The position numbers and the translations under genes are program-made. From a virus: DNA of 64,000 bases. The notes under the pieces were generated by a model. That model made no database searches. It was given only the letters and a program-made list of their open reading frames with translations, and was not told where the DNA came from. Each line of letters starts with the position of its first letter. The stretch's first letter is position 1. The stretch is taken from positions 38,726 to 102,725 of IMG/VR virus record IMGVR_UViG_3300030107_002093. One strand, written 5' to 3'. Positions 26,166-61,267 of the stretch are shown here, piece after piece.

Positions 26166-27038
26166 TCAAAACCACTCCTCCAAACTACTTTGTTTTATGT
26201 CCTTCTTTATCTGCATTACATTCCATCCCATTGCTCTGAATATAGGGTCAGCCTTCTTCATGATTGACCCAGCATAGTGTAGCCAATCAGGGGTATATCC
26301 ATCGAAGTCGCTCTCCGTTAGCCCTGCCACATACTTCGGTTCAACAGTCTTTTGGTGTATAGGATGGAAATACACGTTGTTAGGATTCACTATCCTACAA
26401 AAGAGATAGGAGTCTGTTATCGGCACATCATTGATGGCATTGTAGTATACAATACCCTCGATGCCAGCACCAATGGTTGGCCTCTTTCCTTCTAGTGTCT
26501 GCAATGTCATGTTATTGCAACACGCCCCATTAGTCAAGGAATCGAAATCATTCTTCCTTTTGCAATTACTGCACTTGACCTTGAATCTCTCTTCCCTGAA
26601 TCGACTACGCTTCAAAATGTCAGTAATCGGAATCTGTCCTGATAAAACCGTGTAATATTTATCTCTCAAAAATTCCACTATTTCTGCTTCATCCTTGTTT
26701 TCAACCCACATGTTGAGAACTGCTATCTGAACTTCCTTGGCTAGTTTAGTCTCAGAGACTCTCTTAGCAGTGAAGCCAGTCATGGTGAATTCCTTGTCAT
26801 CTAGGAACTTACCATCCTTCCAAGTAATCAAACCAGCGTTTCTGTTCTTTACACAACCAACACCGAGGGATTCAAAGTATTTCTCAAACTCAAGAACCAC
26901 AGGGTGTTCGTCTAACTCTAGGAGATTAGGAAAGAACTTCCTTACATGGTCATTGAGTTTACCCAAGTTCTCTTGTGCTTCCTCAACAGAATCCACTTGG
27001 CAGTAGATTGAATCTGTATGTCCGTAAACTACTTTCAT
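26166..27038 (-). CDS. polB: Family B DNA polymerase, C-terminal part (motif C and thumb)
   Basis: YGHTDS, LEFEK, KNRNAG, GFTAKR; PIP-like QSSLEEWF at the C-terminus. Confidence 0.85.
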   Translation of the reverse strand: MKVVYGHTDSIYCQVDSVEEAQENLGKLNDHVRKFFPNLLELDEHPVVLEFEKYFESLGVGCVKNRNAGLITWKDGKFLDDKEFTMTGFTAKRVSETKLAKEVQIAVLNMWVENKDEAEIVEFLRDKYYTVLSGQIPITDILKRSRFREERFKVKCSNCKRKNDFDSLTNGACCNNMTLQTLEGKRPTIGAGIEGIVYYNAINDVPITDSYLFCRIVNPNNVYFHPIHQKTVEPKYVAGLTESDFDGYTPDWLHYAGSIMKKADPIFRAMGWNVMQIKKDIKQSSLEEWF

Positions 27039-27220
27039 TTCTTCTCCTCCTTGTGTTCATCCAACAAATGCCCTGCCCTTGCTTGTAATTCATAGGCATA
27101 ACATTGTTTACAGTAATGAGTCTTTGACACTAGGTCACTTTTGTTTGATGGCATTAACCGACAACTTCTGTAGCCTAAGTCAATAACAGTCGCAGGTTCT
27201 TCACAATTATAACACTTCAT
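27035..27220 (-). CDS. Small Zn-finger protein
   Basis: CYNC...CKQC. Confidence 0.55.
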   Translation of the reverse strand: MKCYNCEEPATVIDLGYRSCRLMPSNKSDLVSKTHYCKQCYAYELQARAGHLLDEHKEEKK

Positions 27221-27453
27221 TCTTCCCTCTCCATATATTTTGTGTGGTCTTTGGGCAACTTGTGTTGTCTCCTAACCATCATGTTACTAAGATAGGTGCT
27301 GATGTTAGTAGCCCCTGTTCGGAACCGCTTCTCGGCAACCTTGTCTCCTTCTGGAACCATCTCAGCCATTAGTCCATCTAACCATGCTCTACGACCAACC
27401 CATTCTAGTATCTCGTATTCCACATGGGCTACGCTTCTTGCTCTACTGGTCAT
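27217..27453 (-). CDS. Hypothetical protein
   Basis: ATGA-coupled 78 aa ORF. Confidence 0.55.
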   Translation of the reverse strand: MTSRARSVAHVEYEILEWVGRRAWLDGLMAEMVPEGDKVAEKRFRTGATNISTYLSNMMVRRQHKLPKDHTKYMEREE

Positions 27454-27656
27454 TCTACCTCACCTTCCGATGGCTGACAATCACTATTATAGCAAAGAAA
27501 CGTAACCTCATGTTGCACTTCGTAGTTTACATCCATAGGTGAGTCGTATTCGGGATGGCCTCTCCAACCCTCATAAAAGCAATAAGTGGACGGTTGTATA
27601 TACATATTCTCTCCACACTTCGGACATTTTACGTTCATAGCGGTCTTCCAAGTCAT
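27450..27656 (-). CDS. Small Zn-ribbon protein
   Basis: CPKCGENMY...FLCYNSDC. Confidence 0.55.
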   Translation of the reverse strand: MTWKTAMNVKCPKCGENMYIQPSTYCFYEGWRGHPEYDSPMDVNYEVQHEVTFLCYNSDCQPSEGEVE

Positions 27657-27838
27657 TCTTCCTCACCATATCCCCAATTCTTCAAGTCCTTCTCAGTCCA
27701 AGGAGTTCTCATTTGAATCACATCAGCAACTAACTGGTTGATACATGTTGGACAGACCGGGCCTGATGTTGTGCTTTGTAGGGTTATTACACCCACACCA
27801 ACATTACCACCTTCTACATTACAAATTACACATTTCAT
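27653..27838 (-). CDS. Small Zn-finger protein
   Basis: CVIC...CPTC. Confidence 0.55.
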   Translation of the reverse strand: MKCVICNVEGGNVGVGVITLQSTTSGPVCPTCINQLVADVIQMRTPWTEKDLKNWGYGEEE

Positions 27839-28029
27839 ATGTCATCCTCCTTCGGTTTGCACTCTTCGTTGTAGCAATTGAAGGAAACTTCGTAGCACCC
27901 TTCATAGTAGCCGTTCAATTCATCATCATCCCAGCGAACGTGCCACTGCTCCTCTGTTGTTTTCAAGAACATATTGTAATACATCTCCTTTCCACACTTC
28001 GGGCAGTTTGGTCTGAAAAAACTATTCAT
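27835..28029 (-). CDS. Small Zn-ribbon protein, paralogue of 27450-27656
   Basis: CPKCGKEMY...FNCYNEEC. Confidence 0.55.
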   Translation of the reverse strand: MNSFFRPNCPKCGKEMYYNMFLKTTEEQWHVRWDDDELNGYYEGCYEVSFNCYNEECKPKEDDI

Positions 28030-28130
28030 TTCTTATTCCTCCTTTCCATATTACGTTGGTATCTTTCCCATGTCATTCCTTCGTCAAAGGTCAACCACTT
28101 CCATAGTTTCTTTATCCACTTAATCATCAT
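28026..28130 (-). CDS. 34 aa micro-protein
   Basis: Manual translation MMIKWIKKLWKWLTFDEG...; ATGA overlaps at both ends. Confidence 0.45.
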   Translation of the reverse strand: MMIKWIKKLWKWLTFDEGMTWERYQRNMERRNKK

Positions 28131-29788
28131 AACTCCCTCGCTTTGAATGCGGCCTCTCTAATGGCCTGTCTTGCACTAGCAGTGATACTAGCCGCAAGGT
28201 CTACGTTAGCCCAACCAAACCCCTGATATGCAATGATACCATAGAAGGAAGCCATCAATCTCTTGACTGCTAATTGGTTGTTATTCCACTTGTTATAATC
28301 ACTTGTCGTTTCAGCGTTTCTCATCAAGGACTTGTATTCATTCCTCAATTGCTTCAACTCAAGTAGAGCCTTCGGGAGAATCCCCAACTCATCAGTTTTG
28401 AAATACATCATCTCGTATTCGGTTTCAGCACTGAAATCCTTGGGGGTTTTGATATTGACTCCAAAGGCAGTCGGTTCATCAGAGATTGTCTCAAATGAAA
28501 TGTTACGCGCAATTGTCATGCTCGGATAAAGCCCAGCGAAATCGAATGCGGCGACACCCAAATGTAATCCATTTGTGGACTCACTGAGCGGGTCATACAC
28601 CATTGCCCCATCGTATGCTACCCTCTGCCCTTTCTCGCCAGTAGGAGCCTTCCAAGGGGCATTTCTCATGAAATATATGCCTCCCATGTTACTTGCATAG
28701 AAACATGCATCGAAGGGAGCCTTCAGAAGTCTCTGGAGTGACAGTATTGCTTCTGTTGTGTGTTGCATTTCATCTATTCGGACTAATAGTTCAACGTCAA
28801 CCCTCGCGTATTCCAAATAGGTTTCAGTATCCTCAAGCCAACCCCTTGCAAAGAACTCATTCTTATCAGGGAACTTCTCACTGACGAGTTTCTTTGAACC
28901 TAGAACTGTCTCTGCAACGTAATCCAATGCCATTGACGGTAGTGTCCCTCTTTGTGCATCGTTCCATTGTCTCTCAAATGCCATGTCCAGAGGCACACAT
29001 ATCCTTCCCTTGATTGGTTGTGATATAGGAGAGTAGTTGTGAATCGCTTCTTCATAGCCTGACTTGTTCACTCCTGTTATCTCGTTGAATGGAGACATCA
29101 AACGTGGGTCTAAACCGTGAGCCACTATACGTTCAATCAACTTAGGCAAGTCGAACTTCCAACCGAACCAAGAGATAAGCATGTCAGGGTCTTGTTCAAT
29201 CATATCAGCCATGAACGCAACTAACATCTTCTGCTCTGAATGGTATAGACGATTTGTAGAAACATCGTATCCCTTTTCTAGCATTTCCTCTACGTTTGGA
29301 CACCACCAATAAGTAGTGTATCTTCTCTTGTAATTATCATATACAACAATACAAGTGATAGCACCGTCATGTTCTCCACCTTGCATCCACTCCATATCCC
29401 AATACCACTTACGCATCTCGTATTCTGGTATCTCATCTATGCAATCCACCGCATACCTGTAATGGTGTGCAACATCTGCTTCATATGTCTGACCTAACTT
29501 ATCGCGTAACCTGTAGGAGTATGATGGCCTTGCTGGTTTCCAAGTGACCTTGACTAAATCATTACCCTCTAGGTTCTTGTAGTCACCTTCCTCGGTGTTT
29601 ATCTCAAGTCGAAACCTACCCCACCTATCCTTGAACATCAAGTTCTCTATCTCCGTATATGGAGAGTCCTTCTCAATGAAGAAGTATGGCGGGAACTCCT
29701 TGAAAGAGACAACTTTCTCTTCTCTCTCAAGGGTTTCCGGGTTTCTAGTTCTTATTCCTATTCCATCGTTTATTCTACTAATTATCAT
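28127..29788 (-). CDS. polB: Family B DNA polymerase, N-terminal part (3'-5' exonuclease, motifs A and B)
   Basis: WDMEW, FDLPKL, YARVDV exonuclease motifs; FDFAGLYPS motif A; KRLMASFYG motif B. Confidence 0.9.
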   Translation of the reverse strand: MIISRINDGIGIRTRNPETLEREEKVVSFKEFPPYFFIEKDSPYTEIENLMFKDRWGRFRLEINTEEGDYKNLEGNDLVKVTWKPARPSYSYRLRDKLGQTYEADVAHHYRYAVDCIDEIPEYEMRKWYWDMEWMQGGEHDGAITCIVVYDNYKRRYTTYWWCPNVEEMLEKGYDVSTNRLYHSEQKMLVAFMADMIEQDPDMLISWFGWKFDLPKLIERIVAHGLDPRLMSPFNEITGVNKSGYEEAIHNYSPISQPIKGRICVPLDMAFERQWNDAQRGTLPSMALDYVAETVLGSKKLVSEKFPDKNEFFARGWLEDTETYLEYARVDVELLVRIDEMQHTTEAILSLQRLLKAPFDACFYASNMGGIYFMRNAPWKAPTGEKGQRVAYDGAMVYDPLSESTNGLHLGVAAFDFAGLYPSMTIARNISFETISDEPTAFGVNIKTPKDFSAETEYEMMYFKTDELGILPKALLELKQLRNEYKSLMRNAETTSDYNKWNNNQLAVKRLMASFYGIIAYQGFGWANVDLAASITASARQAIREAAFKAREL

Positions 29789-36706: not shown

Positions 36707-37001
36707 CTATAACCCTCACTTCCATTATTTCTTCATATTTGGCTTCACACTTGGCACAATATACCTGCATGACATACCACTTCAACCCATTCTCTTCCTT
36801 TATCCCTGCATCGTATCCGAAGTCTTGGTCACCACACTCATTGCAACCCTTCTTCACTCTATCAAACACATGATGTTCAATGATTTCTGCATCATCCTCC
36901 ATCTTGGCTACTGCATTATTGAATGCCACATTGACATTACAAGCATTACACAACTCACCCATGAGAACGGGCCTAATCTGACATCTAGGACAACGCTTCA
37001 T
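36675..37001 (-). CDS. Zn-finger protein
   Basis: Four CxxC motifs. Confidence 0.55.
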   Translation of the reverse strand: MKRCPRCQIRPVLMGELCNACNVNVAFNNAVAKMEDDAEIIEHHVFDRVKKGCNECGDQDFGYDAGIKEENGLKWYVMQVYCAKCEAKYEEIMEVRVIDEPNENDESE

Positions 37002-37393
37002 GTTAATCCCTTTATTTTTAGAATGTGGTCAAGACCCTTTTGGGTTAGATGTTCCCCATTAGAACACATTACTAGGCATTCCTTGAAGGTTGTCCAAAAT
37101 GGGTTCATTGGTAAATCAGGAATCAATTCCTCGCAGGTTCTATTGAGGTTGGTCATGTTAGTAATCAGCAAGATTGGTCTTGGTCTACTCTTGCTTTCCT
37201 TCTCCTTCAACTTGCTCTCAATCTCATATTGCAATAAAGACCTATGAACTCCTACGAGGAACGTCTTGTGTCCTCTAAGACATATCCTCAATCTAACTCG
37301 ATAGCCTAGCGTGACGTTGTGTTCCTTCGCTACTATAATCTCAGGGATAGCAGAGGCAATCATGATTCCCTGTAACTGCCCCTTGCTGAACAT
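36998..37393 (-). CDS. LAGLIDADG-like protein, possibly inactive
   Basis: GYRVRLRI strand and C-terminal HLTQKGLDHILKIK are typical of single-domain LAGLIDADG proteins; the catalytic helix is divergent. Confidence 0.5.
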   Translation of the reverse strand: MFSKGQLQGIMIASAIPEIIVAKEHNVTLGYRVRLRICLRGHKTFLVGVHRSLLQYEIESKLKEKESKSRPRPILLITNMTNLNRTCEELIPDLPMNPFWTTFKECLVMCSNGEHLTQKGLDHILKIKGLT

Positions 37394-37424: not shown

Positions 37425-38954
37425 TTATGCCATTACCTCTACGTCTTGTATGTTGTTTATGTCAGACACATACTTGTCTCTTCGTATCCTCTTGACTCTT
37501 GGGAACCTTATCGAATAGTTTCCAGAAGCGTCTTGTGATATCAAATCACCAGTGACTTCTAGCACTATTCTAGGTAGCAGTTCAAACGTGTTATTAGAAT
37601 AATTGTCGACTATCTTCTTACATTCCGTGGTTAGCATAATCAAATCACTATCTGAGAAGCCACTACCTACGAATCCTAACTCCACGAACTCACCACTCCA
37701 TTCTCCTTTGACTGATATACCAAAGGAACCGAACACATCTGACCGCTTGCCTTCACCATATCTAGCAGAAGTGATAACAACATCCAACTCTACTCTTGCT
37801 GGCTTGTGTTTCAATAGTGAGGAAGACCTCTTACCAACGTCATACACTGCACTCTTGTCCTTTATCATGATACCCTCATGTCCCATGCTAATTGCGGTAT
37901 TATACGCGGCTTCTATTGGGTGGTTATCATCCCATGAATCTGCTCTGTATTCACTAGGGAAGTCTTGTAGAAGGGATAACCTCAGTCCATAAGAACGACC
38001 TATCAGTGTCTCTTCCATGTAATACAACACATCGAATATTGCTAGTTTAACAGGACACTCCCTAACTGCGGCTTCCTTGTCCTTGGAATGAACTCTCTTT
38101 GCTAGGAGTTTATGTTCCGCAGGTGAACCATCAGCCCTCACAGGATATATCTCGGTATCAATAATGAACTGATGCGCGTTGAATGTCTTGACTATCTCCA
38201 CTATATCGGGATATTGTTCAGTGACTACATTTCCCTTACGATTGAATATGATGACGTTATCATCAAACCTATGAATCTGATACCTATTACCATCATACTT
38301 CACATCAATGAGATACTGGTCTGGTAATTTACCCGCAAATTTCTTCGCCAGAACGCAAGGTATGAACCCCCCATGCATTACTGTGCATGGAGGGTTTTGC
38401 CCATTCATTAGATAACGATATACGATTGATGACTTGTGGAATTTACCATACATCAATACTTTGTTATCGGAAAAGTAATCTGCTAACGCCTTGTTTACCG
38501 TTGAACAAGATACACCGTTCCTCGGAGTCCGTAGCCAATACCTCAAGAACCACTTCAACTCCAATCCGTTCATCTCGTTGATGGCTTCCTTGAAGAGTTC
38601 ATAGGAATGACCATTACTAACAGAACAATCCATAGTCAATAGATGTATTAGACTCTTCATTGATATGTTACTACTAACAGAGGACTCCCCGATGAATTGA
38701 CGCATCCCTTCACCTAAGTCACCCCACATATTCTCGTATTCTACTACTTCGTCATCGAAGCAACCCAAGGCATTAGCAATCCATTTCCTAGCATTAGTGA
38801 GTCCGATGTTATTACTCTCATATTCCTCACATAGGATGCGAACTAATATCTCACCGTCATCCAAGAACGTAGAGAAGTTCTCAGAAAGAGTCTTTCTCTT
38901 TCCTTTTGAGTTCTCTAACGCTTCACATAAATTACTGAATCTACTCAGTGTCAT
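37425..38954 (-). CDS. lig: ATP-dependent DNA ligase
   Basis: KYDGNR motif I, IDTEI, FDVLY, EGIMIK, LDVVI, GSGFSD, RFPR..RIR.DK. Confidence 0.92.
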   Translation of the reverse strand: MTLSRFSNLCEALENSKGKRKTLSENFSTFLDDGEILVRILCEEYESNNIGLTNARKWIANALGCFDDEVVEYENMWGDLGEGMRQFIGESSVSSNISMKSLIHLLTMDCSVSNGHSYELFKEAINEMNGLELKWFLRYWLRTPRNGVSCSTVNKALADYFSDNKVLMYGKFHKSSIVYRYLMNGQNPPCTVMHGGFIPCVLAKKFAGKLPDQYLIDVKYDGNRYQIHRFDDNVIIFNRKGNVVTEQYPDIVEIVKTFNAHQFIIDTEIYPVRADGSPAEHKLLAKRVHSKDKEAAVRECPVKLAIFDVLYYMEETLIGRSYGLRLSLLQDFPSEYRADSWDDNHPIEAAYNTAISMGHEGIMIKDKSAVYDVGKRSSSLLKHKPARVELDVVITSARYGEGKRSDVFGSFGISVKGEWSGEFVELGFVGSGFSDSDLIMLTTECKKIVDNYSNNTFELLPRIVLEVTGDLISQDASGNYSIRFPRVKRIRRDKYVSDINNIQDVEVMA

Positions 38955-39162
38955 CTATACCATCTACTATCTTATTGAGTGCCTTACTCAGGTTCACTAC
39001 TTCATTCATATTCACACGGATTCCCTTCTTGGTTGGCTTACCGTTATTGAACCACCTGATGTCAACCACCTTAATGTTCCAATACTCACCTTCCTTTATC
39101 TGAATCTCATTGTTTGCATCTCTTGGTATCCTTGCTATAATATCCCATTTGTCATTGTCCAT
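38941..39162 (-). CDS. PC4/YdbC-like ssDNA-binding protein
   Basis: VDIRWF...PTKKGI motif. Confidence 0.7.
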   Translation of the reverse strand: MDNDKWDIIARIPRDANNEIQIKEGEYWNIKVVDIRWFNNGKPTKKGIRVNMNEVVNLSKALNKIVDGIDDTE

Positions 39163-42500: not shown

Positions 42501-43412
42501 TCAATATCTCACGCCCGATACGAAGTCCTCGACATCCATATCAGATAATCTCTTCCTATCAAGCCCGAATATATCTGCAAATTTTTGCAGAGCGAATCTC
42601 AATCCAATCACTGATGAATTCCATACATCACATATGTTATCTTGTGTGATTGACTCATCCGTCATTTTAGCAGTCCACCAGAAAGTAGCCGCTAACATGG
42701 TATCGGAATACCTCATGTCCAATGCTTCTATATGCCTAGAGACATATTCCACCATCTTCAATACACATATCCTATAGTATTGGGACACCTCAGTATCCAA
42801 CTTACCTATTAGCACAGTCGCCTTCTGAATATGATTCTCAATAGCGAAGACATGTGCCTTACGTTGATGTCTTGCTATACGCCTAGCCATCTTTGATATC
42901 TCATTCTGTTTTACCTTGGTGTATTTGGCATGGTCTTGGATATTACAAACAATCCCTGCTTCCTTCAATACATAGTAGGTAAGACCAGCACATCTTCTCT
43001 CTACACTGCTTCCTCTGAATATCCTTTCACGACACAGTGTCTTGTAATACCCATGAGTCCTATCTTTGATATCCCAACCACTAACGTAGTATGAGAGTGT
43101 AGTGTTGATTAGGAGTTTAGCCCTTCTCTCTGATTCTGTTTCTGGCTGGCTTCTCAGTTGCTCTCTATATAGAGCGAACTTACCACTACTGCCATAGGCC
43201 TCTTGCTTTTTGATATAAGAACCCAATCTACCCGTTGTGACTCCGCGTTTATCATCGTCACTTAGTTTGATTACTTGTGTAGTTTCTTCAAATGGATTCA
43301 CTACTAGAACCAAACCGCAGTCATCGCATGTCCTTTCACCTAAATGCTCAATGAATGTAAAATCCTTGCAACCACATTCCTTACACATGTCACCCGTAGT
43401 TGTCAGGTTCAT
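42501..43412 (-). CDS. tfb: Transcription initiation factor IIB (TFB)-like protein
   Basis: CKECG...GERTCDDCGLVL Zn ribbon; cyclin repeats with RGSSVE..AG..Y and ITQ..I. Confidence 0.8.
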   Translation of the reverse strand: MNLTTTGDMCKECGCKDFTFIEHLGERTCDDCGLVLVVNPFEETTQVIKLSDDDKRGVTTGRLGSYIKKQEAYGSSGKFALYREQLRSQPETESERRAKLLINTTLSYYVSGWDIKDRTHGYYKTLCRERIFRGSSVERRCAGLTYYVLKEAGIVCNIQDHAKYTKVKQNEISKMARRIARHQRKAHVFAIENHIQKATVLIGKLDTEVSQYYRICVLKMVEYVSRHIEALDMRYSDTMLAATFWWTAKMTDESITQDNICDVWNSSVIGLRFALQKFADIFGLDRKRLSDMDVEDFVSGVRY

Positions 43413-54050: not shown

Positions 54051-54090
54051 ACCATATGGTAAGGGACACTTTGAGGACACACCTCATAAG
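54051..54090 (+). promoter_or_regulatory. Palindromic element copy 1 plus CCTCATAAG box
   Basis: ACCATATGGT-N7-ACTTTG, left arm degenerate; CCTCATAAG at 54082. Confidence 0.65.
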
Positions 54091-54149
54091 ACTTCCAACC
54101 CCCATACTATTGTCTCGGAGGAGGCACAACCAACACAGGAGAGAATGAT

Positions 54150-54614
54150 ATGGCAGAAATGAAGAATTGGAATGAGTTCAGCACAACCGTGAACAGTTTC
54201 TTGGATGGAGGGTCAGTCGACAAGATGACTGCCTCGACTTGCAGGACACTGCTCGGAAAAGGAGACAACAACGTAACGGCACAGACAAAGGTGTCCTCGG
54301 CAATAAAGACCATGCTAGAGGACTTCGATGGCGCACCAGTCGGTAGGGCATCCGCTCTAACTGGCGATGCGCTAACTTCCTTTGTGGGTGCAAGCAAGGA
54401 GATTGAGGCAATTGCTTCCGTCTTCGATGCTCACCCCTCAATCAGGGGCCTTATCCTTCCACACGGAAGGAGCAAGGAAGCCGTCTTTGATGACGGTAAC
54501 GCATGGGTGGCTTTCATAGTCGCACAGATGCGCCGAAACGCTATCTCAGCAAGCAAGGCTGGCTGGGATGGTTCACCGGACACTCTAGTGTCCTTCCTTC
54601 AGGAGGGAAACTGA
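54150..54614 (+). CDS. Hypothetical early-type protein, paralogue of 56745-57269
   Basis: CAGGAGAG RBS; shared MAEM..W, SAI+T..D..P and WDGS..LV motifs. Confidence 0.7.
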   Translation: MAEMKNWNEFSTTVNSFLDGGSVDKMTASTCRTLLGKGDNNVTAQTKVSSAIKTMLEDFDGAPVGRASALTGDALTSFVGASKEIEAIASVFDAHPSIRGLILPHGRSKEAVFDDGNAWVAFIVAQMRRNAISASKAGWDGSPDTLVSFLQEGN

Positions 54615-54654
54615 GTCGGTGATGTTGTCTCCTCCAGACACATCAAGGTTCCCA

Positions 54655-54704
54655 CAAAGTTCCGAACCATATGGTATGATACTTTGCTCAGCATACCTCA
54701 TAAG
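54655..54704 (+). promoter_or_regulatory. Palindromic element copy 2 plus CCTCATAAG box
   Basis: CAAAGT-N5-ACCATATGGT-N5-ACTTTG; box ends 22 nt before ATG 54726. Confidence 0.7.
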
Positions 54705-54725
54705 TCTGCAAGGGTAACTACTACC

Positions 54726-55454
54726 ATGTTGACATATGTAAGAACATACGAGATAACCTACGACAGAACGACAAGTGAGAAGATGCCACAATTGAACACT
54801 AAACTGTTCACCAGTGGTGTCAGAACATGCAACAAATACAGTAGCGATTTGGATGACCACCACTACGGAATGCAAGAATACGAGGATAGGGAAACATCCT
54901 ACATGATTGACATGATGGGTAAGATTGGTGTCATGGATTTCATGTATAGGAGCGATGCCCAGAAAGCAGAGGAGCAACTACAGAAGGCATTCCCATACGA
55001 GGATATTCACATGTATGAGGAATCGAAGGTCAAGAGTGGTGAGAAAGAGAAGGGGCCAAGAGGAGAATACCTAATTCACACTGATTACGACTACTGCCTC
55101 AAATACTACAACCCACATCAGACAGTTGATGAGAATGTGAAGGTAGTTGCCACACTACACACCACCTACAATGAGACAAAACTCAAATTCGTCATCACAT
55201 GGCAATCAGAGAAGGTCGCAAGGAAGGCTAAGATTGAGCAGAAGTGCGTAGATGCCCCACTAGCAATAATGGGGAAGATACAACACGTTGTTGAGAAGTC
55301 TTTGAGGGAACTCAATGATTGGGAAACCGAAGTTTTCGACAATGCGGAGATTGGTTGCCACTTCGATGTCATCAGTGAGAGCAGAAGTGAATGCACTCCT
55401 GATATTATCGAGAGAGTTAGAGCCGAGAAGAGGAAGAACGAGGAGGAAGAGTGA
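54726..55454 (+). CDS. Hypothetical protein
   Basis: ATG 54726 preferred on promoter spacing over TTG 54684. Confidence 0.65.
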   Translation: MLTYVRTYEITYDRTTSEKMPQLNTKLFTSGVRTCNKYSSDLDDHHYGMQEYEDRETSYMIDMMGKIGVMDFMYRSDAQKAEEQLQKAFPYEDIHMYEESKVKSGEKEKGPRGEYLIHTDYDYCLKYYNPHQTVDENVKVVATLHTTYNETKLKFVITWQSEKVARKAKIEQKCVDAPLAIMGKIQHVVEKSLRELNDWETEVFDNAEIGCHFDVISESRSECTPDIIERVRAEKRKNEEEE

Positions 55455-55660
55455 ATATGACAGATTACACAGTGAAGAATGGAGCAGTAGTAAGAGAAGA
55501 TGTGAAACCATACAAGTATGAACTGGAAGTTGGACACTCCAAGAGTGGTTCAGACCATGTTATCGTCATCAAGAGTCTAAGGGTTCGTGGCGATGACTTG
55601 GCTGAGTCACTTGCTGAGTTGAAAGCCGCTCTACGAGCATTCAGGGAGATGAATCTCTGA
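55451..55660 (+). CDS. Hypothetical protein
   Basis: GAGGAGG RBS, coupled. Confidence 0.55.
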   Translation: MNMTDYTVKNGAVVREDVKPYKYELEVGHSKSGSDHVIVIKSLRVRGDDLAESLAELKAALRAFREMNL

Positions 55661-56007
55661 TGCCATTGATAGTTGGAATAGTAAACGGCCCTGACAAGGG
55701 GTTCTCTAGTGAGGAGATTAGTTTCATCAACAGTTTCGGCATAGGTGTCTTAGCGATGGCGGCTTGTGTGGGTAGAGTAGATGACCCACAGAAGTTCCAT
55801 GATAGGATACAAATGACTAATCTCGTTACGGGAATATTCAACTTCCTACCTAGTTGGTTCACCGTTGAGTTCTGTGGCAGACTACAAGCCGCAGATTGGT
55901 CAGCCAACGTTACCACAGAGTCACATACGATGTGGAAGAACCGTATGAAGCAACGACTGTGGGATGATATCAAGAGAGACTACGCAAAGAGTTGTGAGGA
56001 GGAGTGA
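55660..56007 (+). CDS. Hypothetical protein
   Basis: TGATG coupling. Confidence 0.6.
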   Translation: MPLIVGIVNGPDKGFSSEEISFINSFGIGVLAMAACVGRVDDPQKFHDRIQMTNLVTGIFNFLPSWFTVEFCGRLQAADWSANVTTESHTMWKNRMKQRLWDDIKRDYAKSCEEE

Positions 56008-56136
56008 TTACAAGTTGGCGAGGCTACATAAACAGGTGGTAGCCCAAAACCGTAACCGATATGCACAGAGCAATCTGATAATACATAGAGCATTAAGAAG
56101 TCGGGTAAGCCAACACACCCTTCAGGGTATGGGCGA

Positions 56137-56168
56137 CAAAGTGCCATACCATATGGTGGTAAACTTTG
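56137..56168. promoter_or_regulatory. Palindromic element copy 3
   Basis: CAAAGT-N5-ACCATATGGT-N5-ACTTTG; no CCTCATA box follows. Confidence 0.6.
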
Positions 56169-56242
56169 TGGACACCTTGTTCAATTGTGCTGGAACCGTC
56201 AAGGAGGAGAGGAGAGCATCGTTGCAAGTTGCTAAGTCTTAG

Positions 56243-56635
56243 TTCCGACTCATGGCTAGGGGTGTATTCCGGATTCACCCTAGTCTGATTGCGCACTTCT
56301 CAGTCTACAGAGCATTCGTCTTGCTAGTCTCTTGGCACTCCTATCAGTTCCAGTGGAATTGAAGGTGGTAGAGTGGATTGGTTTCCCAGAGCCACTAATC
56401 CGCATGGGCGCAAGGTTCACAGTTTTGTAATTGCAAATCTTAACCCGCTGATACCGCGTAACCTATCAGGAGTAATCCCGACTTTCAACGGCTCCTATCT
56501 CTAGGTGCGATTGCCCCACTACAGGGAGGTTGCGTGCCTTTGACCCCTTGCGAAGGTCACATTCAGCCACTACCGTGTCCCTCCGGCCAAGGGGGACAAT
56601 AGTATGGTAGCCAGCACATCTTATGAGGTGTCATT
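56243..56635 (+). ncRNA. Candidate structured non-coding RNA
   Basis: ~390 nt without a convincing ORF, containing several hairpins; lies between element copies 3 and 4. Confidence 0.4.
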
Positions 56636-56636
56636 A

Positions 56637-56688
56637 CAAAGTTATGCTTACCATATGGTAGGATACTTTGTCAACATACCCTCATAAG
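56637..56688 (+). promoter_or_regulatory. Palindromic element copy 4 plus CCTCATAAG box
   Basis: CAAAGT-N7-ACCATATGGT-N5-ACTTTG; box at 56680. Confidence 0.7.
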
Positions 56689-56744
56689 GGTGGTTTGTCA
56701 GTAATAGTTGTCCCGAAAGACACACTCTAACAGGAGAGAGACAC

Positions 56745-57269
56745 ATGGCAGAAATGACAGATGACAAATGGAATGCAATAAAGACGAAGATTGAACTGTG
56801 GTTTACTAACCACGAAGATTGGGAGGATACGCACCTTGAGTTGCTATCAGTTCCCAATCTGGTGAAGGCTGGCGATGCAAAGCCAAGCAAGAGGACTGCA
56901 CTATACAGTGCAATCCGAACATGCTTCTCGGACATACCCGACAAACCTTTCACTACCGGAAAGAAGAGCGCAATGCCTGACGAAACTCAGTCATTCCGTG
57001 ACGGAGAACTCGCTACTATCAAGAAGGCTCTAGAGTCTTGCTTCGATGATTGTGAGCAGATGTCAAGGTATCTAGTGCGCAACAAGAGAAGTGGCGGCGG
57101 TCTATTCACCGATGGTGCGGATTTCGCACAGACTATGGTTGACGCGGCAAGACTTCGTATGAATGCGGCATTCAATGCTCACCTAAAGAGTGACGACAAA
57201 GCCGATTATATCTGGGACGGTTCCGACAAGGGACTTGTATGCCAGATTCCTCCCAAGGAGGACAATTGA
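56745..57269 (+). CDS. Hypothetical early-type protein, paralogue of 54150-54614
   Basis: CAGGAGAG RBS and shared motifs. Confidence 0.7.
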   Translation: MAEMTDDKWNAIKTKIELWFTNHEDWEDTHLELLSVPNLVKAGDAKPSKRTALYSAIRTCFSDIPDKPFTTGKKSAMPDETQSFRDGELATIKKALESCFDDCEQMSRYLVRNKRSGGGLFTDGADFAQTMVDAARLRMNAAFNAHLKSDDKADYIWDGSDKGLVCQIPPKEDN

Positions 57270-57417
57270 GTAAGTGACCTTTCGGGACACACACATTCGA
57301 TAAAGAGGTAAGGATTCAGGGTATACCACTTGAGGAATCCAGTAAACTAGTGACAAGACCTCATGCACCCAACGGGGTGCGAGGTTAACCCACCACTAAC
57401 CCCTCTATAGGGTAGCC

Positions 57418-57466
57418 CAAAGTGCAACCATATGGTAAGGATACTTTGAATCACGCACCTCATAGG
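57418..57466 (+). promoter_or_regulatory. Palindromic element copy 5 plus CCTCATAGG box
   Basis: CAAAGT-N3-ACCATATGGT-N6-ACTTTG; box ends 22 nt before ATG 57488. Confidence 0.7.
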
Positions 57467-57487
57467 TGAGACTGTCTGGCATATATC

Positions 57488-57733
57488 ATGAAGAACGTGG
57501 CATTTCAGAGGAGACACTTCAACTGGATGGTTGGATTAATGGTAGAAATGGACTTGTCGGAGGAGCAAACCGATTGGATGATAATGAGACTATCGGAGAC
57601 TAACGACAATTTCAATGAGAGGACATTCAGACTCAGTTTGATGAGAGAATTGAATGCGAGAGAGACAACTAGTCTATTCTCAAGCCCCTTAACATACAAA
57701 GGGTTAGGATTGAGGACAAAGGAGGAAGAATAA
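57488..57733 (+). CDS. Hypothetical protein
   Basis: Follows element copy 5. Confidence 0.6.
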   Translation: MKNVAFQRRHFNWMVGLMVEMDLSEEQTDWMIMRLSETNDNFNERTFRLSLMRELNARETTSLFSSPLTYKGLGLRTKEEE

Positions 57734-57933
57734 TGGGAAGATTTACGACATACTACGACCACTATAACATCAAGTGCGATTTATCCACAATGTGCGGGTG
57801 TGAACTATGCTGTGGGGAGGCATACATTGACACAAGCGGAAACGTGGTTTATCTTGATGAAGAGGACTTTACTGGTGACTACCTCACACCAGAAGACATC
57901 AAGAGGATTGAGGCAAAGAAGGAGGAAGAATAA
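57733..57933 (+). CDS. Small Cys-rich protein
   Basis: GGAGG RBS, TAATG coupling. Confidence 0.6.
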   Translation: MGRFTTYYDHYNIKCDLSTMCGCELCCGEAYIDTSGNVVYLDEEDFTGDYLTPEDIKRIEAKKEEE

Positions 57934-58133
57934 TGGGAACAAGTTGGAACAAGAGACACGCGACAACCATCATCGGGGTTAACGGTGACGCTATCGACAG
58001 AAGCGGAATGCAAAAGGCCCACTGGCGAAGGTATGACCTATGGAAGCAACGCTTCCTAGACAAGCGAACCAAGAAGTGGGACGAGAGACTCATCAAGGAG
58101 TGGTTGAAGCCACTTGTTGACGAGGAGGAGTGA
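57933..58133 (+). CDS. Small basic Trp-rich protein
   Basis: GGAGG RBS, TAATG coupling. Confidence 0.6.
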   Translation: MGTSWNKRHATTIIGVNGDAIDRSGMQKAHWRRYDLWKQRFLDKRTKKWDERLIKEWLKPLVDEEE

Positions 58134-58153
58134 CGACCTCAACGGGGTTTCCA

Positions 58154-58178
58154 CAAAGTTCACAACCATATGGCTTTG
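58154..58178. promoter_or_regulatory. Palindromic element copy 6, right half collapsed
   Basis: CAAAGT-N5-ACCATATGG-CTTTG. Confidence 0.55.
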
Positions 58179-58457
58179 CAATGTGAAATTTTTTTTCCTT
58201 GATTAATGCAGACTGCATTCAAACTGGAAAAATTTCGCCTTTCATACAATAATATAATGTGATTTATAGTTATCCGCTATGATAATTAGACGGAGGAATA
58301 AGCACAGATAAAAACAATTGGAATAAAATGTTATTACATTCTTATTCTGGGAATAGAACAAATTGATGAAAAAAAAAATCGCAAGTGCCAAACAAATTCC
58401 GGGTATTTTTTTGAAAAAGAGTGGTAAAATATGTTTAACCAAGGAGTTGTATTCTAG

Positions 58458-58666: not shown

Positions 58667-59368
58667 ATGGCAGATTGGACGGAAATTCTCAAGAAACCGC
58701 TAATTTCCATCCCAAAACAGAAGATTCGGATTAAAAAGCCGAAGAAAATAGAGCAAGAGGACGATTGTAAGAGGAAATTGAAGGAAATCGCCCAGAGAGT
58801 GCTAAATGCTCCATTATTTGACAAGGAATTCAAACTTAACGGTTCAGAGTGGACATCAGAACGTGTTAGAACGGAGGAATTACCAGATGCAGCCTCATAT
58901 AGCATTGCTGATGGTAGACATGGGGGGAAACTGAAGGTGGGAACATGGCTTCCAGAAGAATTGCGCGGAAATGCGACTAATGGTGCAATAGGCTATCTTC
59001 GTGGGGCAGGTTCCGATGCTGATATCAATGAGTTGCCAGAAAAGATATGTTGTGAGGCGTTGAAGCATCTGAAGGCGGTTTCTAATGGAGAGGTTCTTTC
59101 TGAGCAAACACTCGTTGGATGGACAGTTGGCTCGCGTGTTAAACTAGAGACATATGGGAGAAACCCTACAGTCCATCTGTGGAATAGGGAGGTCTACATC
59201 AAGAATGCACAAGGCCCGACACCTCAACTGTCGATTGGTATTTCTCTGAAGTTTTTCATCCCAACTCCCTTCGGTGGTCGAACAAGAGATGTAGAGACTG
59301 CTAACTTGAGAGAAGTCACTAGGGTCTTCAAGGAATGTGACAGGATGTTCAAGGAGGCGGTAGGTTGA
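58667..59368 (+). CDS. Tandem paralogue family member 1
   Basis: MADWTEILKKPLISIPKQKIRIKKPKKIE..DDC; LPEKICCEAL. Confidence 0.7.
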   Translation: MADWTEILKKPLISIPKQKIRIKKPKKIEQEDDCKRKLKEIAQRVLNAPLFDKEFKLNGSEWTSERVRTEELPDAASYSIADGRHGGKLKVGTWLPEELRGNATNGAIGYLRGAGSDADINELPEKICCEALKHLKAVSNGEVLSEQTLVGWTVGSRVKLETYGRNPTVHLWNREVYIKNAQGPTPQLSIGISLKFFIPTPFGGRTRDVETANLREVTRVFKECDRMFKEAVG

Positions 59369-59841
59369 GTTGGTTTGACATTATCAAGGAGCCTTTGATA
59401 TCTATTCCCAAAGGCAGTGTTAGAATCAAGAAGCCTAAGAAGATTGAGACTAATGATAAATGTCTACCGAAAGTCAAGAAGTTCCTTTGGGATGTCTTTC
59501 CTATTATTGCAAATGAGTCAGATTTCACAATATTGTTTGAAAAAGATGGTGGTCATTGCTATGTGCAGGATTTCAATATATCAGAAGAGTATGCATGTAA
59601 AATTCTACAAGCCATGTCCATGAACAGTCCTCCGAGGGGATTTATGATAAGTTGGGCCGAAGGAAATGTGGCGTATCTCGATAGTAATTTGACCGATGAT
59701 GAATTACGCTTTCACGATATGCCTTTGATGAAGATAACCAATCCACCATATAACTGTGAAATAAATTATGTGGGAGCAAAACCGTTAACCTCAGAAAGAT
59801 GGTCAGAGATATTGGATAAAATTAAGGATGTGTTTCCATGA
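59365..59841 (+). CDS. Tandem paralogue family member 2
   Basis: MSWFDIIKEPLISIPK..RIKKPKKIE..DKC; ISEEYACKIL. Confidence 0.7.
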   Translation: MSWFDIIKEPLISIPKGSVRIKKPKKIETNDKCLPKVKKFLWDVFPIIANESDFTILFEKDGGHCYVQDFNISEEYACKILQAMSMNSPPRGFMISWAEGNVAYLDSNLTDDELRFHDMPLMKITNPPYNCEINYVGAKPLTSERWSEILDKIKDVFP

Positions 59842-60473
59842 GTTGGTTCGATATTCTGAAGGAGCCACTTATCTCTGTGCCTAAGAGCATAGTTAGCATG
59901 AAGAAGCCAAAGAAGGTTGAGATTAAGGAGGATTGCAAGGAGAGGTTGGGTGCTTTCATAGAGAAGGTCAAAAGTATTGTTCCTAGTGGCTCTGTGTATG
60001 AACCATATGGCCCATTCACAAAATATATTGAAGGTATGAATAGAAGAAACTACTACTATCAAAAGTGGGATGAAGTTTCTGAAGAGGTAGCATGTAAAAT
60101 AATTGAAATGTTGAGAAAGGAAGCCAACAATAAGGACTATGCTGATGGGGGAGTAACTTATCGAGGGAAGTTTCCTAAAGTCAGGGAAAAACACGGAAAC
60201 ATGTCGAGATTAGCAGAAGTTGACGATTATGAGATTGAAGTTGAATTTGCTAAATCCGATATGGCTTTAACTAATAGAATGGAAAACAGAGGGAGACTAT
60301 TAATTTATGTGTTTTCCGGTAGTAAAAAACTGTATCTACTAAGAGTATACCTCAGAATTGGTGATGTAGTTGAGCCTGATACTGCAACAGTAGCACCACC
60401 ACCGAGAGCCAGACCCAACGAAGAGCAAGAAGACTTTGATAATTACGATAAGATAAAGGCGGTCATTCCATGA
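59838..60473 (+). CDS. Tandem paralogue family member 3
   Basis: MSWFDILKEPLISVPK..MKKPKKVE..EDC; VSEEVACKII. Confidence 0.7.
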   Translation: MSWFDILKEPLISVPKSIVSMKKPKKVEIKEDCKERLGAFIEKVKSIVPSGSVYEPYGPFTKYIEGMNRRNYYYQKWDEVSEEVACKIIEMLRKEANNKDYADGGVTYRGKFPKVREKHGNMSRLAEVDDYEIEVEFAKSDMALTNRMENRGRLLIYVFSGSKKLYLLRVYLRIGDVVEPDTATVAPPPRARPNEEQEDFDNYDKIKAVIP

Positions 60474-61267
60474 ATTGGTTCGATATTCTAAAGTTGCAAA
60501 TCAACATTCCTAAGCAGAAGGTTAGGATAAATAAGCCCAAGAAGATAGAGGAGGAGGAGTCTGGCTGTCGTGAGAAGATGAAGCGTGTCTTGGACACATG
60601 GGGGAATAGTCAGGAGGACATTAAATCAGAATCACTGAAAGTGGCTGAATCGATTTGGGATGAGTATTTCGGTGGTGTCTACGACCATTATCTACACAGT
60701 GACTCAGGGGATAAAATCACCATAGAAGATAGTTACATCACAAGATGGGAATCTGGGACAGGGGGCAAGCCTATTCCGAAGAAGATGAAACACATAGGCA
60801 GGGGAGGGGTTTTTGACATCAACCTGAGTAATCTCCATATTGTAGATGAAACAATTGGTGGTGCGCAGTTTGAAGGCTCTGACACAGAAGCACTCATGGA
60901 GGGTGTTCCAGAATCAGTTGCATGTAAGTTCCTAGAACTGCTCAACACGGCAACTGGTAAGACTGGGGAATGGGAACAATCTATCTCCGATTTGGAAGGT
61001 TGGGACTTACTTGGTTTTACTAGGTATGTCCCTGATAGGAATCGGTTTGGTTTTACAGTGATTACCACTGGAATGAGAACTGAGAGTAAGCATAAGAGGC
61101 TTGATGAGGATTGGTATGAGATGAGTTACTTGTTTGAATTAGACCCGTGGTATCTCCAAGGAATCGAAGATACCGAGCAATGGAGTGTGTATGATGACGC
61201 TCTATTAACCAAATTGATGAAGGAAGGGTGGCAACAGATAAACAGTAAGGTGAGGTCAATGCTATGA
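60470..61267 (+). CDS. Tandem paralogue family member 4
   Basis: MNWFDILKLQINIPKQKVRINKPKKIE..SGC; VPESVACKFL. Confidence 0.7.
   Translation: MNWFDILKLQINIPKQKVRINKPKKIEEEESGCREKMKRVLDTWGNSQEDIKSESLKVAESIWDEYFGGVYDHYLHSDSGDKITIEDSYITRWESGTGGKPIPKKMKHIGRGGVFDINLSNLHIVDETIGGAQFEGSDTEALMEGVPESVACKFLELLNTATGKTGEWEQSISDLEGWDLLGFTRYVPDRNRFGFTVITTGMRTESKHKRLDEDWYEMSYLFELDPWYLQGIEDTEQWSVYDDALLTKLMKEGWQQINSKVRSML

What the first reader, a model, noticed from the sequence alone, without database searches (positions are those of the whole stretch)
54051..58178. Six copies of a ~32-bp interrupted palindrome punctuate the early-type region
Seen: the consensus CAAAGT-N(3-7)-ACCATATGGT-N(5-7)-ACTTTG has cores at 54051, 54666, 56148, 56650, 57427 and 58165. 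I saw no other copy of the full element in the window. Four copies have CCTCATA[A/G]G 30-31 nt after the core start, and in two of these the box ends exactly 22 nt before an ATG, the geometry of a leaderless archaeal promoter. Inference A: these are early promoters with a non-canonical TATA box and a dimeric activator or repressor site. Inference B: because copies bound each gene unit, including a terminal copy with no box, they may be recombination sites for an exchangeable cassette array, or DNA-entry/packaging signals.
Basis: partly seen in the sequence, partly recalled or inferred. Interest (0 to 1): 0.8.

Follow-up and report, generated by a model that had tools for sequence, protein, structure and literature searches.

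The report
Palindrome-tagged promoters in a marine archaeal virus
The six palindromes are real and mark a family-wide set of virus-specific promoters that head small gene units, plus one structured RNA, in viruses of abundant marine archaea; the same repeats have also served as breakpoints for reshuffling those units.

Summary
The window belongs to a 102.7-kb magrovirus, a tailed virus of marine Poseidoniales archaea. It has a split PolB, an RNR, an archaeal-type ligase and its own TFB.

The 10-bp palindrome ACCATATGGT, flanked by CAAAGT/ACTTTG arms, occurs only in one 4.1-kb block. There are four full copies and two edge half-copies.

I found a third layer: an ACC(C/T)-YATA box, which reads CCTCATAAG in this virus. 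It often lies on both sides of the core.

- The same architecture clusters in one block per genome in 29 of 31 related records that were searched whole, and in 19 of 19 near-complete ones.
- The box lies 28-34 nt upstream of ORF-opening ATGs in 19.5% of cases, against 2.5% for controls. This is the geometry of archaeal leaderless promoters.
- A manA-family RNA starts 30-32 nt after the box in four viruses. The window copy is on the minus strand downstream of element 4.

These are therefore best read as bidirectional promoter modules with a conserved operator or activator site. Who binds the core is unknown. A conserved LAGLIDADG protein that lacks the motif's catalytic acidic residue is my candidate, and the viral TFB may read the box.

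One lineage shows an inversion with breakpoints in two cores, as in the PeSL elements of T4-type phages. Expression timing was not tested. A packaging role is not supported.

The parts
54051..54090 (+). Element 1, the left edge half-element: core 54051-54060, right arm ACTTTG 54068-54073, box CCTCATAAG 54082-54090. The predicted start is about 54112 (ATTG), giving a leadered g1 mRNA.
54655..54704 (+). Element 2, a full palindrome: arms 54655-54660 and 54681-54686, core 54666-54675, box 54696-54704. The box ends 22 nt before the ATG of g2 at 54726 (leaderless).
56124..56168 (.). Element 3: arms 56137-56142 and 56163-56168, core 56148-56157. It has no plus-strand box and only a degenerate inverted box, AGGGTAT, at 56124-56130. 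It lies at the far end of the minus-strand RNA unit.
56620..56688 (.). Element 4, bidirectional: inverted box 56620-56628 (minus strand), arms 56637-56642 and 56665-56670, core 56650-56659, plus-strand box 56680-56688. It drives g5 rightward (predicted start about 56710) and the manA-like RNA leftward (start 56598).
57406..57466 (.). Element 5: inverted box TATAGGGTA 57406-57414, arms 57418-57423 and 57443-57448, core 57427-57436, box CCTCATAGG 57458-57466. The box ends 22 nt before the ATG of g6 at 57488 (leaderless).
58144..58196 (.). Element 6, the right edge half-element: weak inverted box GGGGTT 58144-58149, left arm 58154-58159, variant core ACCATATGGC 58165-58174, then a run of eight T (58189-58196). 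The same 'GGC + TTTG + T-run' edge variant recurs in relatives (L151-L154, L075, L100, L115).
56362..56598 (-). A manA-family structured RNA (Rfam RF01745), a diverged copy. Its 5' end lies 22 nt after the end of the minus-strand box.
   Evidence: 42.2 bits, E 1.6e-9, full model. Homologues: L154 86.1 bits, above the gathering score; L085 48.6 bits and L110 44 bits.
54150..56007 (+). Units g1 (54150-54614), g2 (54726-55454), g3 (55457-55660) and g4 (55660-56007). They have no known function, but their families recur in the blocks of relatives.
56745..58133 (+). Units g5 (56745-57269, a paralogue of g1 at 27% identity), g6 (57488-57733), g7 (57733-57933) and g8 (57933-58133).
   Evidence: AF2 model of g5, all-alpha with no fold match
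42501..43412 (-). Virus-encoded TFB/TFIIB homologue (303 aa): zinc ribbon plus two cyclin folds. It is a candidate reader of the non-canonical box.
   Evidence: (human TFIIB E 2e-10, P. woesei TFB core 2.3e-8). Present in 22/29 motif-bearing records and 9/9 near-complete ones.
36998..37393 (-). Single-domain LAGLIDADG protein (131 aa) with no acidic residue at the motif's catalytic position. It is a candidate homodimeric binder of the invariant palindrome (inference only).
   Evidence: 14/14 genomes; I-PnoMI E 1.2e-18; 15/16

Best explanation
Each element is a symmetric control module of a virus-specific class of archaeal promoters. Reading outward from the centre, a half-module consists of half of the invariant core ACCATATGGT, a 2-9 nt spacer, the arm (A/G)CTTTG, a 3-18 nt spacer, and the box ACC(C/T)-YATA (CCTCATAAG in this virus). 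The box sits where BRE and TATA sit in an archaeal promoter. Transcription is predicted to start 22-23 nt after the box. That point is either the A of the ATG (leaderless g2 and g6) or an ATTG motif that opens a short leader (g1, g5) or a structured RNA (manA-like, minus strand). Because the module is palindromic, one core can serve two divergent half-promoters. Edge copies keep only the inward half. The box is G/C-containing and unlike the A/T-rich TATA-like stretches upstream of the genes that flank the block. I therefore infer that initiation depends on a factor bound at the core, about -50 to -60. This factor would be a dimeric activator or, alternatively, a repressor that shuts the block off. 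My candidate is the conserved LAGLIDADG homodimer that lacks the catalytic residue, and the virus's own TFB may read the ACC part of the box. Shown: the conservation, the geometry, the coincidence with the RNA 5' end and the co-occurrence. Inferred: that transcription really starts there, who binds, the sign of regulation and the timing. As a by-product, the repeated palindromes are substrates for recombination that inverts and shuffles the units.
For: The element is unique to one block and far beyond chance. The same three-layer architecture occurs in more than 30 IMG/VR contigs. The exact 10-mer occurs 3-13 times, essentially always in one block (a single outlying copy in G033), in 15/15 motif-selected records and 14/16 TFB-selected records. 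Among near-complete records it is 10/10 and 9/9; the reversed control sequence gave 0 in all but one record. The core is exact in 154/190 copies, while the spacers vary. 164 of 197 arm-bearing half-sites have an ACCY box within 22 nt. The distance from box to ORF-opening ATG peaks at 28-34 nt in 32/164 cases (19.5%), against 2.9% for other ACCY sites and 2.5% for random positions. A second group at 39-48 nt carries GGTGA/GGAGG Shine-Dalgarno leaders. manA RNA matches begin 30-32 nt after the 'ACC' of the box in the window, L154, L085 and L110. This is the same distance, obtained from an independent kind of 5' end. Hairpin plus T-run terminators precede elements in relatives. The full palindrome is absent from 185,579 prokaryote genomes apart from 2 chance-level hits, so it is virus-specific. 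TFB and the LAGLIDADG protein are core genes of the same virus group.
Against: There are no transcript data, so every start site is inferred. The spacers between core, arm and box vary by up to 7-15 nt, which is odd for one rigid protein complex. About half of the box-bearing directions (79/164) face no ORF, so the outer layer could be a binding site rather than a TATA box. Co-occurrence with TFB and LAGLIDADG is uninformative because all three are universal in the clade. No DNA-binding domain was found in any protein of the block.
Confidence: 0.7

Rival explanations
1. The elements are primarily recombination sites that shuffle, invert, gain and lose gene units (a PeSL-like or cassette-like system). 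On this view promoter activity is secondary.
For: In the L152/L153/L154 lineage the g1 unit is inverted relative to the rest of the block. All four junctions map to the flanks of two cores: the best local scores were E1L with rc(A_R), E1R with B_R, E2L with A_L, and E2R with rc(B_L). Unit order and orientation differ widely among relatives, and the g1/g5 family is repeatedly duplicated, each copy beside an element. Every palindromic copy is an inverted repeat of every other copy.
Against: I found no integrase or recombinase in the window ORFs scanned, and the ICTV profile reports none for the related family Aoguangviridae (PMC10768690). The closest relative, L151 (92% nt identity), differs at 56008-56122 and 57619-57922, not at the elements. 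The main gene families in the block recur across relatives, so it is not an open cassette pool. Strict conservation of sequence, together with a fixed distance to start codons, is not needed for recombination.
Confidence: 0.15
2. The cluster is the replication origin. On this view the invariant 10-mer is an iteron or ORB-like site for a viral initiator (MCM loader, Orc-like or primase-associated protein).
For: There is one cluster per genome, with 3-13 copies of an invariant dyad. It sits at the strand switch and at the cumulative GC-skew minimum. Some relatives have dense arrays of bare cores every 100-150 bp, with few ORFs (L085, L110, L095). The viruses carry their own replisome.
Against: In the window, copies are 0.5-1.5 kb apart with genes between them, and each sits at a fixed distance from a gene or RNA start. 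GC skew here follows gene strand, so it does not discriminate. No Orc1/Cdc6-type gene was found next to the block.
Confidence: 0.1
3. The elements are packaging (pac/terminase) or DNA-entry signals.
For: They are repeated, virus-specific sites confined to one region. In this record the block lies 6-10 kb from the right end.
Against: The record has no terminal repeats, so its ends are arbitrary. In the relative with direct terminal repeats (G024, 95,639 bp) the cores lie at 77.9-82.0 kb, about 14-18 kb from the end. The geometry relative to gene starts is unexplained by this model.
Confidence: 0.03

Closest known systems
PeSLs (promoter-early stem-loops) of T4-type phages (Arbiol et al. 2010, PMC2839356; Comeau et al. 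2014, PMC4122927)
   Same: Short conserved composite regulatory motifs that are repeated in intergenic spaces of a region rich in small genes of unknown function. Each heads a small transcription unit, and recombination between copies shuffles the units.
   Different: PeSLs combine a bacterial sigma-70 promoter with a terminator stem-loop. Here the promoter half has archaeal BRE/TATA geometry. The palindrome is conserved in sequence, its spacers are not complementary, and it is not followed by a T-run, so it looks like a protein site rather than a terminator. Minicircles were not tested.
Conserved motif of haloarchaeal tailed virus HGTV-1: a TATA-like region plus an inverted repeat before most ORFs of one genome arm (summarised in PMC3950731, citing Sencilo et al. 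2013)
   Same: An archaeal tailed virus in which a repeated motif combines a TATA-like box with an inverted repeat. The authors proposed that it regulates transcription and promotes shuffling.
   Different: The host lineage and virus order are different. I could not read the primary paper, so sequence, spacing and symmetry could not be compared. In the present case the motif is shared by a whole virus group, confined to one 2.5-5 kb block, and bidirectional.
Activator-dependent archaeal promoters with an upstream palindromic site (for example Ptr2 in Methanocaldococcus, or the GvpE UAS in haloarchaea; from my own knowledge)
   Same: A weak or atypical TATA box with a dyad-symmetric site just upstream of BRE that recruits TBP/TFB.
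   Different: Those sites bind host Lrp- or bZIP-like factors. Here the factor is unknown, the site is virus-specific, and it serves two divergent promoters.
Phage-encoded initiation factors that redirect host RNA polymerase to phage promoters (for example T4 gp55 and SPO1 gp28 sigma factors; from my own knowledge)
   Same: The virus brings its own homologue of the host promoter-recognition factor (TFB here) and also carries a promoter class unlike host-type promoters.
   Different: The link between the viral TFB and these boxes is inference only. The presence of TFB in magroviruses is already annotated (ICTV Aoguangviridae profile, PMC10768690).

Membership tests
Archaeal TBP/TFB-dependent promoter | A TATA-type element centred about 26-27 bp upstream of the transcription start | tested here: met
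   The box spans -30 to -22 relative to the ATG of leaderless g2 and g6. Family-wide, the distance from ACC to ATG peaks at 28-34 nt, 19.5% against 2.5% for controls. manA RNA 5' ends lie 30-32 nt from ACC in 4/4 cases. The start sites themselves are inferred, not mapped.
Archaeal TBP/TFB-dependent promoter | An A/T-rich TATA consensus (TTTAWATA-like) with a purine-rich BRE directly upstream | tested here: not met
   The box reads ACCTCATAAG here and ACCCTATA, ACCTTAT or ACCCCAAT in relatives. The BRE position is C-rich.
Archaeal TBP/TFB-dependent promoter | Experimentally mapped start site, or TBP/TFB binding | not testable with these tools
   No transcriptome or binding data were available.
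PeSL-type mobile regulatory cassette | A repeated intergenic promoter motif heading small ORFan units in a plastic region | tested here: met
   All six copies are intergenic. The units have no Pfam or PHROG function. Maps of 20 loci are.
PeSL-type mobile regulatory cassette | The stem-loop part is a transcription terminator | tested here: not met
   The spacers between arms and core are not complementary, and there is no T-run after the palindrome except at edge element 6. Separate hairpin plus T-run terminators lie upstream of elements in relatives.
PeSL-type mobile regulatory cassette | Rearrangement breakpoints between related genomes fall in the motif | tested here: met
   One inversion has both breakpoints at cores. 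However, the two differences from the closest relative, L151, are not at elements.
Archaeal origin (ORB/iteron cluster) | Dyad repeats flanking an A/T-rich unwinding element beside an initiator gene | tested here: inconclusive
   A/T-rich intergenic stretches do flank the block. However, the copies are separated by genes and no Orc1/Cdc6 gene was seen next to the block.
TFB/TFIIB (protein at 42501-43412) | An N-terminal zinc ribbon plus two cyclin folds with a C-terminal HTH | tested here: met
   The profile matches human TFIIB at E 2e-10 over residues 24-281, P. woesei TFB core at 2.3e-8, and the ribbon structure 1PFT at 2e-3. All 36 Foldseek matches at E <= 0.001 are TFIIB, TFB or Brf chains. 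The invariant R272 lies in the helix aligned to the human TFIIB C-terminal HTH.
LAGLIDADG homing endonuclease (protein at 36998-37393) | LAGLIDADG fold | tested here: met
   The family profile matches I-PnoMI at 1.2e-18, as well as I-OnuI, I-PanMI and the single-domain 5gkk_A at 1e-7.
LAGLIDADG homing endonuclease (protein at 36998-37393) | A catalytic acidic residue at the end of the LAGLIDADG motif | tested here: not met
   The segment aligned to 'GLIDGEGSF' reads GIMIASAIP in the window protein. The 12 homologues that align there have M, H, V, A, L, I or K at the position of the catalytic E. It is probably not an active nuclease.
Rfam RF01745 manA RNA (56362-56598, minus strand) | Score at or above the family's gathering threshold (55.2 bits) over the full model | tested here: inconclusive
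   The window copy scores 42.2 bits (E 1.6e-9, model positions 1-192), below the threshold. The copy at the corresponding position in L154 scores 86.1 bits, above it, and the two regions align at 71%.

The most novel reading that the evidence does not exclude
Magroviruses run a private transcription system. A domesticated LAGLIDADG homodimer that has lost its catalytic residue binds the invariant ACCATATGGT operator, and the virus's own TFB reads the C-rich box. Together they switch on, or time, a shufflable block of small genes and a stand-alone manA RNA. RNAs of the manA family were recently reported to self-assemble into decamers and 60-mer cages. This would be the first virus-specific promoter/factor pair in archaeal tailed viruses, and the first biological context for manA RNAs outside bacteria and cyanophages.
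Probability: 0.2. Interest if true: 0.8.

Novelty: new variant of a known kind. Interest (0 to 1): 0.6.

Why it matters
Magroviruses infect Poseidoniales, which are among the most abundant archaea of the surface ocean. Neither the viruses nor their hosts have been cultured, so nothing is known about how these viruses control their genes.

A strictly conserved cis-element with clear promoter geometry gives a concrete handle that can be tested in vitro:
- a promoter consensus;
- predicted start sites that can be checked against existing marine metatranscriptomes;
- two conserved viral candidate factors (TFB and the LAGLIDADG protein).

It also extends the PeSL idea, in which regulatory repeats double as recombination joints, to a whole order of archaeal viruses. 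Finally, it places the orphan manA RNA in an archaeal-virus transcription unit.

Tried and rejected
- **Related deposited genomes.** blastn of the block, and tblastn of the TFB, against the phage collection found nothing. The PolB protein gave only distant tblastn matches (about 24% identity to haloarchaeal tailed viruses).
- **Pfam models for the TFIIB cyclin domain and TBP.** Neither hit the genome directly. The TFB was found only through a weak zinc-ribbon hit and then a profile.
- **Host origin of the element.** The full palindrome gave only 2 chance-level hits in 185,579 prokaryote genomes.
- **Restriction-site explanation.** CATATG is not avoided elsewhere in the genome (43 observed, 31 expected).
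- **TFB as reader of the core.** Rejected, because its recognition helix is highly variable while the core is invariant.
- **Co-variation tests linking motif, TFB and LAGLIDADG.** Uninformative, because all three are universal in the near-complete genomes.
- **Function of the block proteins.** Pfam, PHROGs, PDB profiles, the ESM Atlas and an AF2 model with Foldseek for the g1/g5 family gave nothing.
- **The 56170-56620 stretch as a generically stable RNA.** Folding z-scores were unremarkable (-0.9 and -1.7), and blastn found only the elements in relatives. Only the covariance-model search identified it.
- **HGTV-1.** The primary paper is not held, and the accession I guessed from memory belonged to another virus.
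- **Virion RNA polymerase idea (N4 or crAss-type hairpin promoters) for the giant ORFs.** Pfam gave no support, only a tail-fibre-like repeat. I did not pursue it further.

Full report
**What the window is.** The window is the last 64 kb of a 102,725-bp IMG/VR virus record that CheckV rates as complete. It encodes the following:
- a family B DNA polymerase split into two ORFs (28127-29788 and 26166-27038, minus strand);
- an archaeal-type ATP-dependent ligase and a class II ribonucleotide reductase;
- an RFC-like clamp loader, an XPF/ERCC4 nuclease and a Cas4-like nuclease;
- a ThiF/E1 enzyme.

A split PolB, an RNR and an archaeal-type ligase in the replication block are the features described for group B magroviruses, the tailed viruses of marine group II archaea (Poseidoniales) (PMC5434244). 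The nearest deposited PolB genes are those of haloarchaeal tailed viruses, at about 24% identity.

**Check of the observation.**
- The five exact ACCATATGGT cores and the sixth variant (ACCATATGGC at 58165) are at the stated positions.
- The half-site CAAAGT-N3-8-ACCATATGG occurs ten times against zero expected and nowhere else in the genome.
- This makes four full palindromes and two edge copies that keep only the inward-facing arm.
- The CCTCATARG boxes lie 30-31 nt after the core start. They end 22 nt before the ATGs at 54726 and 57488.

I add three points:
- A fifth exact box lies on the minus strand at 56628->56620, 31 nt from the core of element 4, so that element is bidirectional.
- Weaker inverted boxes lie upstream of the other elements, for example TATAGGGTA at 57406-57414. 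The whole element is therefore a three-layer palindrome of about 60-70 bp.
- The block has 47% GC, against 40-42% in the 2-kb windows on either side.

**Conservation.** A scan of IMG/VR with the half-site found many contigs of 45-100 kb that carry several copies. Their sequences show the same architecture: an inverted box (TATAGGGT-like), CAAAG(T/C), a spacer, ACCATATGGT, a spacer, (A/G)CTTTG, and then the box ACC(C/T)-YATA.

I searched 31 related records for the exact 10-mer.
- Fifteen were chosen by the motif and sixteen independently through the TFB gene.
- Twenty-nine of them have the 10-mer 3-13 times, essentially always in one block of a few kb; a single copy in G033 lies about 4 kb outside its cluster.
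- All 19 near-complete records have it.
- The reversed control sequence was absent from all but one record.
- The two records without the 10-mer are 76% and 86% complete.

The core is exact in 154 of 190 copies, while the spacers between layers vary from 2 to 9 nt and from 3 to 18 nt. The full palindrome gave only two chance-level hits in 185,579 prokaryote genomes. The element is therefore a virus-lineage feature, not a host one.

**Promoter geometry.** The geometry around the box fits an archaeal promoter.
- Of 197 arm-bearing half-sites, 164 have an ACCY-type box within 22 nt.
- In 32 of these 164, the first ORF-opening ATG lies 28-34 nt after the A of ACC, with a mode of 30-32 nt.
- That is 19.5%, against 2.9% for similar box-like words elsewhere in the same loci and 2.5% for random positions. 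The nominal binomial P is 3e-19, but the sequences are related, so this number overstates independence.
- A second group at 39-48 nt carries GGTGA or GGAGG ribosome-binding sites.

A TATA-type element centred about 26 nt upstream of the start of a leaderless mRNA is the standard archaeal arrangement (established knowledge). In the window, g2 and g6 are of the leaderless type. Genes g1 and g5 have 38-35 nt leaders that begin at a shared ATTGTC(C/T)C motif, 22-23 nt after the box.

**Independent support from an RNA.** The 450-bp ORF-poor stretch between elements 3 and 4 matches Rfam manA RNA (RF01745) on the minus strand at 56598->56362. The match covers the full model at E 1.6e-9 and 42.2 bits, below the 55.2-bit gathering score.
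- The homologous position in relative L154 scores 86.1 bits, above threshold.
- L085 and L110 score 48.6 and 44 bits.
- In all four viruses the RNA match begins 30-32 nt after the ACC of an element-linked box. In the window this is exactly 22 nt after the end of the box.

So two unrelated kinds of functional 5' end, start codons and the first helix of a structured RNA, sit at the same distance from the box. The L110 copy is followed by a hairpin and a T-run, so there the RNA is a stand-alone gene rather than a 5' leader.

manA RNAs were previously known from marine metagenomes, T4-like cyanophages and two gamma-proteobacteria (PMC2864571). A 2026 preprint reports that they assemble into decamers and 60-mer cages.

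**Candidate factors.** The 303-aa product of 42501-43412 (minus strand) is a diverged TFB.
- A profile of 18 homologues matches human TFIIB at E 2e-10 over nearly its full length. It also matches the Pyrococcus TFB core and the zinc ribbon.
- All 36 Foldseek matches of the AF2 model at E <= 0.001 are TFIIB, TFB or Brf chains.
- A TFB gene is already drawn in the ICTV genome map of the magrovirus family Aoguangviridae (PMC10768690), so its presence is not new.
- I found nothing in the magrovirus papers I could read on promoters or palindromes.
- The TFB recognition helix varies strongly between relatives. The box also varies, whereas the core does not. TFB might therefore read the box but cannot explain the invariant core.

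For the core I propose the 131-aa protein at 36998-37393 (minus strand).
- Its family profile matches LAGLIDADG homing endonucleases at E 1e-18, including single-domain forms.
- It is present in 29 of 30 related records examined and in all 18 near-complete ones among them, besides the window's own genome.
- The acidic catalytic residue of the motif is replaced in the window protein and in the 12 homologues that align there.
- Its most conserved residues include G30, Y31 and R40 of the conserved GYRVRLRV segment. By analogy with solved LAGLIDADG enzymes, I take this segment to lie in the first beta-strands, which contact DNA.
- Single-domain LAGLIDADG proteins act as homodimers on palindromic sites of about 22 bp (established knowledge).

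This assignment is an inference. Co-occurrence cannot test it, because the motif, TFB and the LAGLIDADG protein are all universal in the clade. No DNA-binding domain was found in the proteins of the block itself.

**Recombination.** The closest relative (L151, 92% nucleotide identity) has the same six elements. Between the two viruses, substitutions within the elements fall in the spacers. The two larger differences (56008-56122 and 57619-57922) are not at elements.

In the next lineage (L152, L153, L154) the g1 unit is inverted relative to the rest of the block. Pairwise scoring of the 90-nt flanks places all four junctions at the cores of two elements.

Maps of 20 loci show units in both orientations, varying order, and repeated duplication of the g1/g5 family, each copy beside an element. 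The main gene families of the block recur across relatives. I found no recombinase in the ORFs scanned, and none is reported for Aoguangviridae (PMC10768690).

This is the behaviour described for PeSL elements of T4-type phages (PMC2839356, PMC4122927) and proposed for a TATA-plus-inverted-repeat motif in haloarchaeal virus HGTV-1 (PMC3950731). I read it as homologous recombination between repeated palindromes, not as a dedicated cassette system.

**Other models.** An origin of replication cannot be excluded.
- In favour: there is one cluster per genome, at the strand switch and at the GC-skew minimum. Some relatives have dense arrays of bare cores every 100-150 bp.
- Against: in the window the copies are separated by genes, and each is tied to a gene or RNA start.

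A packaging role is unlikely, because in the one relative with terminal repeats the block lies about 14-18 kb from the end. CATATG is not avoided elsewhere in the genome, so a restriction-related explanation fails.

**Verdict.** The finding is real and biologically meaningful. It is a family-wide, bidirectional, palindrome-tagged promoter module in uncultured marine archaeal viruses, with PeSL-like side effects on genome plasticity. It is a new variant of a known kind. The open questions are the binding factor, the sign of regulation and the timing of expression.

Noticed in passing
window 56362-56598 (-): A manA-family structured RNA (Rfam RF01745) in an archaeal virus, apparently a stand-alone transcript from an element promoter. 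Homologues lie in L154 902-1106 (86 bits, above threshold), L085 5163-5399 and L110 635-863. manA RNAs were known only from marine metagenomes, cyanophages and two gamma-proteobacteria. Some of the 'marine metagenome' manA copies may belong to magroviruses.
   Followed up: partly
window 36998-37393 (-): A single-domain LAGLIDADG protein that is conserved as a core gene in all near-complete relatives but lacks the catalytic acidic residue. It looks like a domesticated DNA binder rather than a mobile homing endonuclease.
   Followed up: partly
window 42501-43412 (-): A diverged viral TFB/TFIIB homologue with a zinc ribbon and two cyclin folds. Its HTH recognition helix is highly variable among relatives.
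   Followed up: yes
window 38941-39162 (-): A 73-aa protein with a PC4/p15-like hit (PF02229, E 6e-5, just under the cut-off), next to the ligase gene. It may be a single-strand DNA binder or a transcription cofactor.
   Followed up: no
window 54109-54150, 56707-56745, 56598-56575 (-): The leaders of g1 and g5 and the 5' end of the manA-like RNA share the start motif ATTGTC(C/T)C and a small 5'-terminal hairpin (TGTC...GACA or TGTCCC...GGGACA).
   Followed up: no
L095 7601-7900: Four tandem units of about 100 bp. Each has a bare ACCATATGGT core and, on the opposite strand, a strong GGAGG site followed by a six-codon micro-ORF (MFDDCE or MFDDDE).
   Followed up: no
L085 4585-7140; L110 93-2527; G035 86.1-90.6 kb: Dense arrays of 13-14 cores at 100-150 bp spacing, mostly without arms or boxes and with few ORFs. 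This may be a different use of the same core (iterons, or small RNA units).
   Followed up: partly
window 55440-55454, 55996-56007, 57722-57733, 57922-57933, 58122-58133: Five of the eight block proteins end in EEE or EEEE. In three cases (g2, g6, g7) this is because the GGAGGA ribosome-binding site of the next gene lies inside the coding end.
   Followed up: no
window 58667-61267: Four consecutive paralogous proteins share an N-terminus of the form M-[ASN]-[DW]-W-x-[DE]-I-L-K...IPK...KKPKK.
   Followed up: no
L069 539-782; L072 728-799: tRNA genes in related magrovirus contigs (three in a row in L069). None is present in this window.
   Followed up: no
window 26166-29788 (-): The two halves of the split PolB are separated by about 1.1 kb that holds three small ORFs, one with a zinc-ribbon hit (27450-27656).
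   Followed up: no
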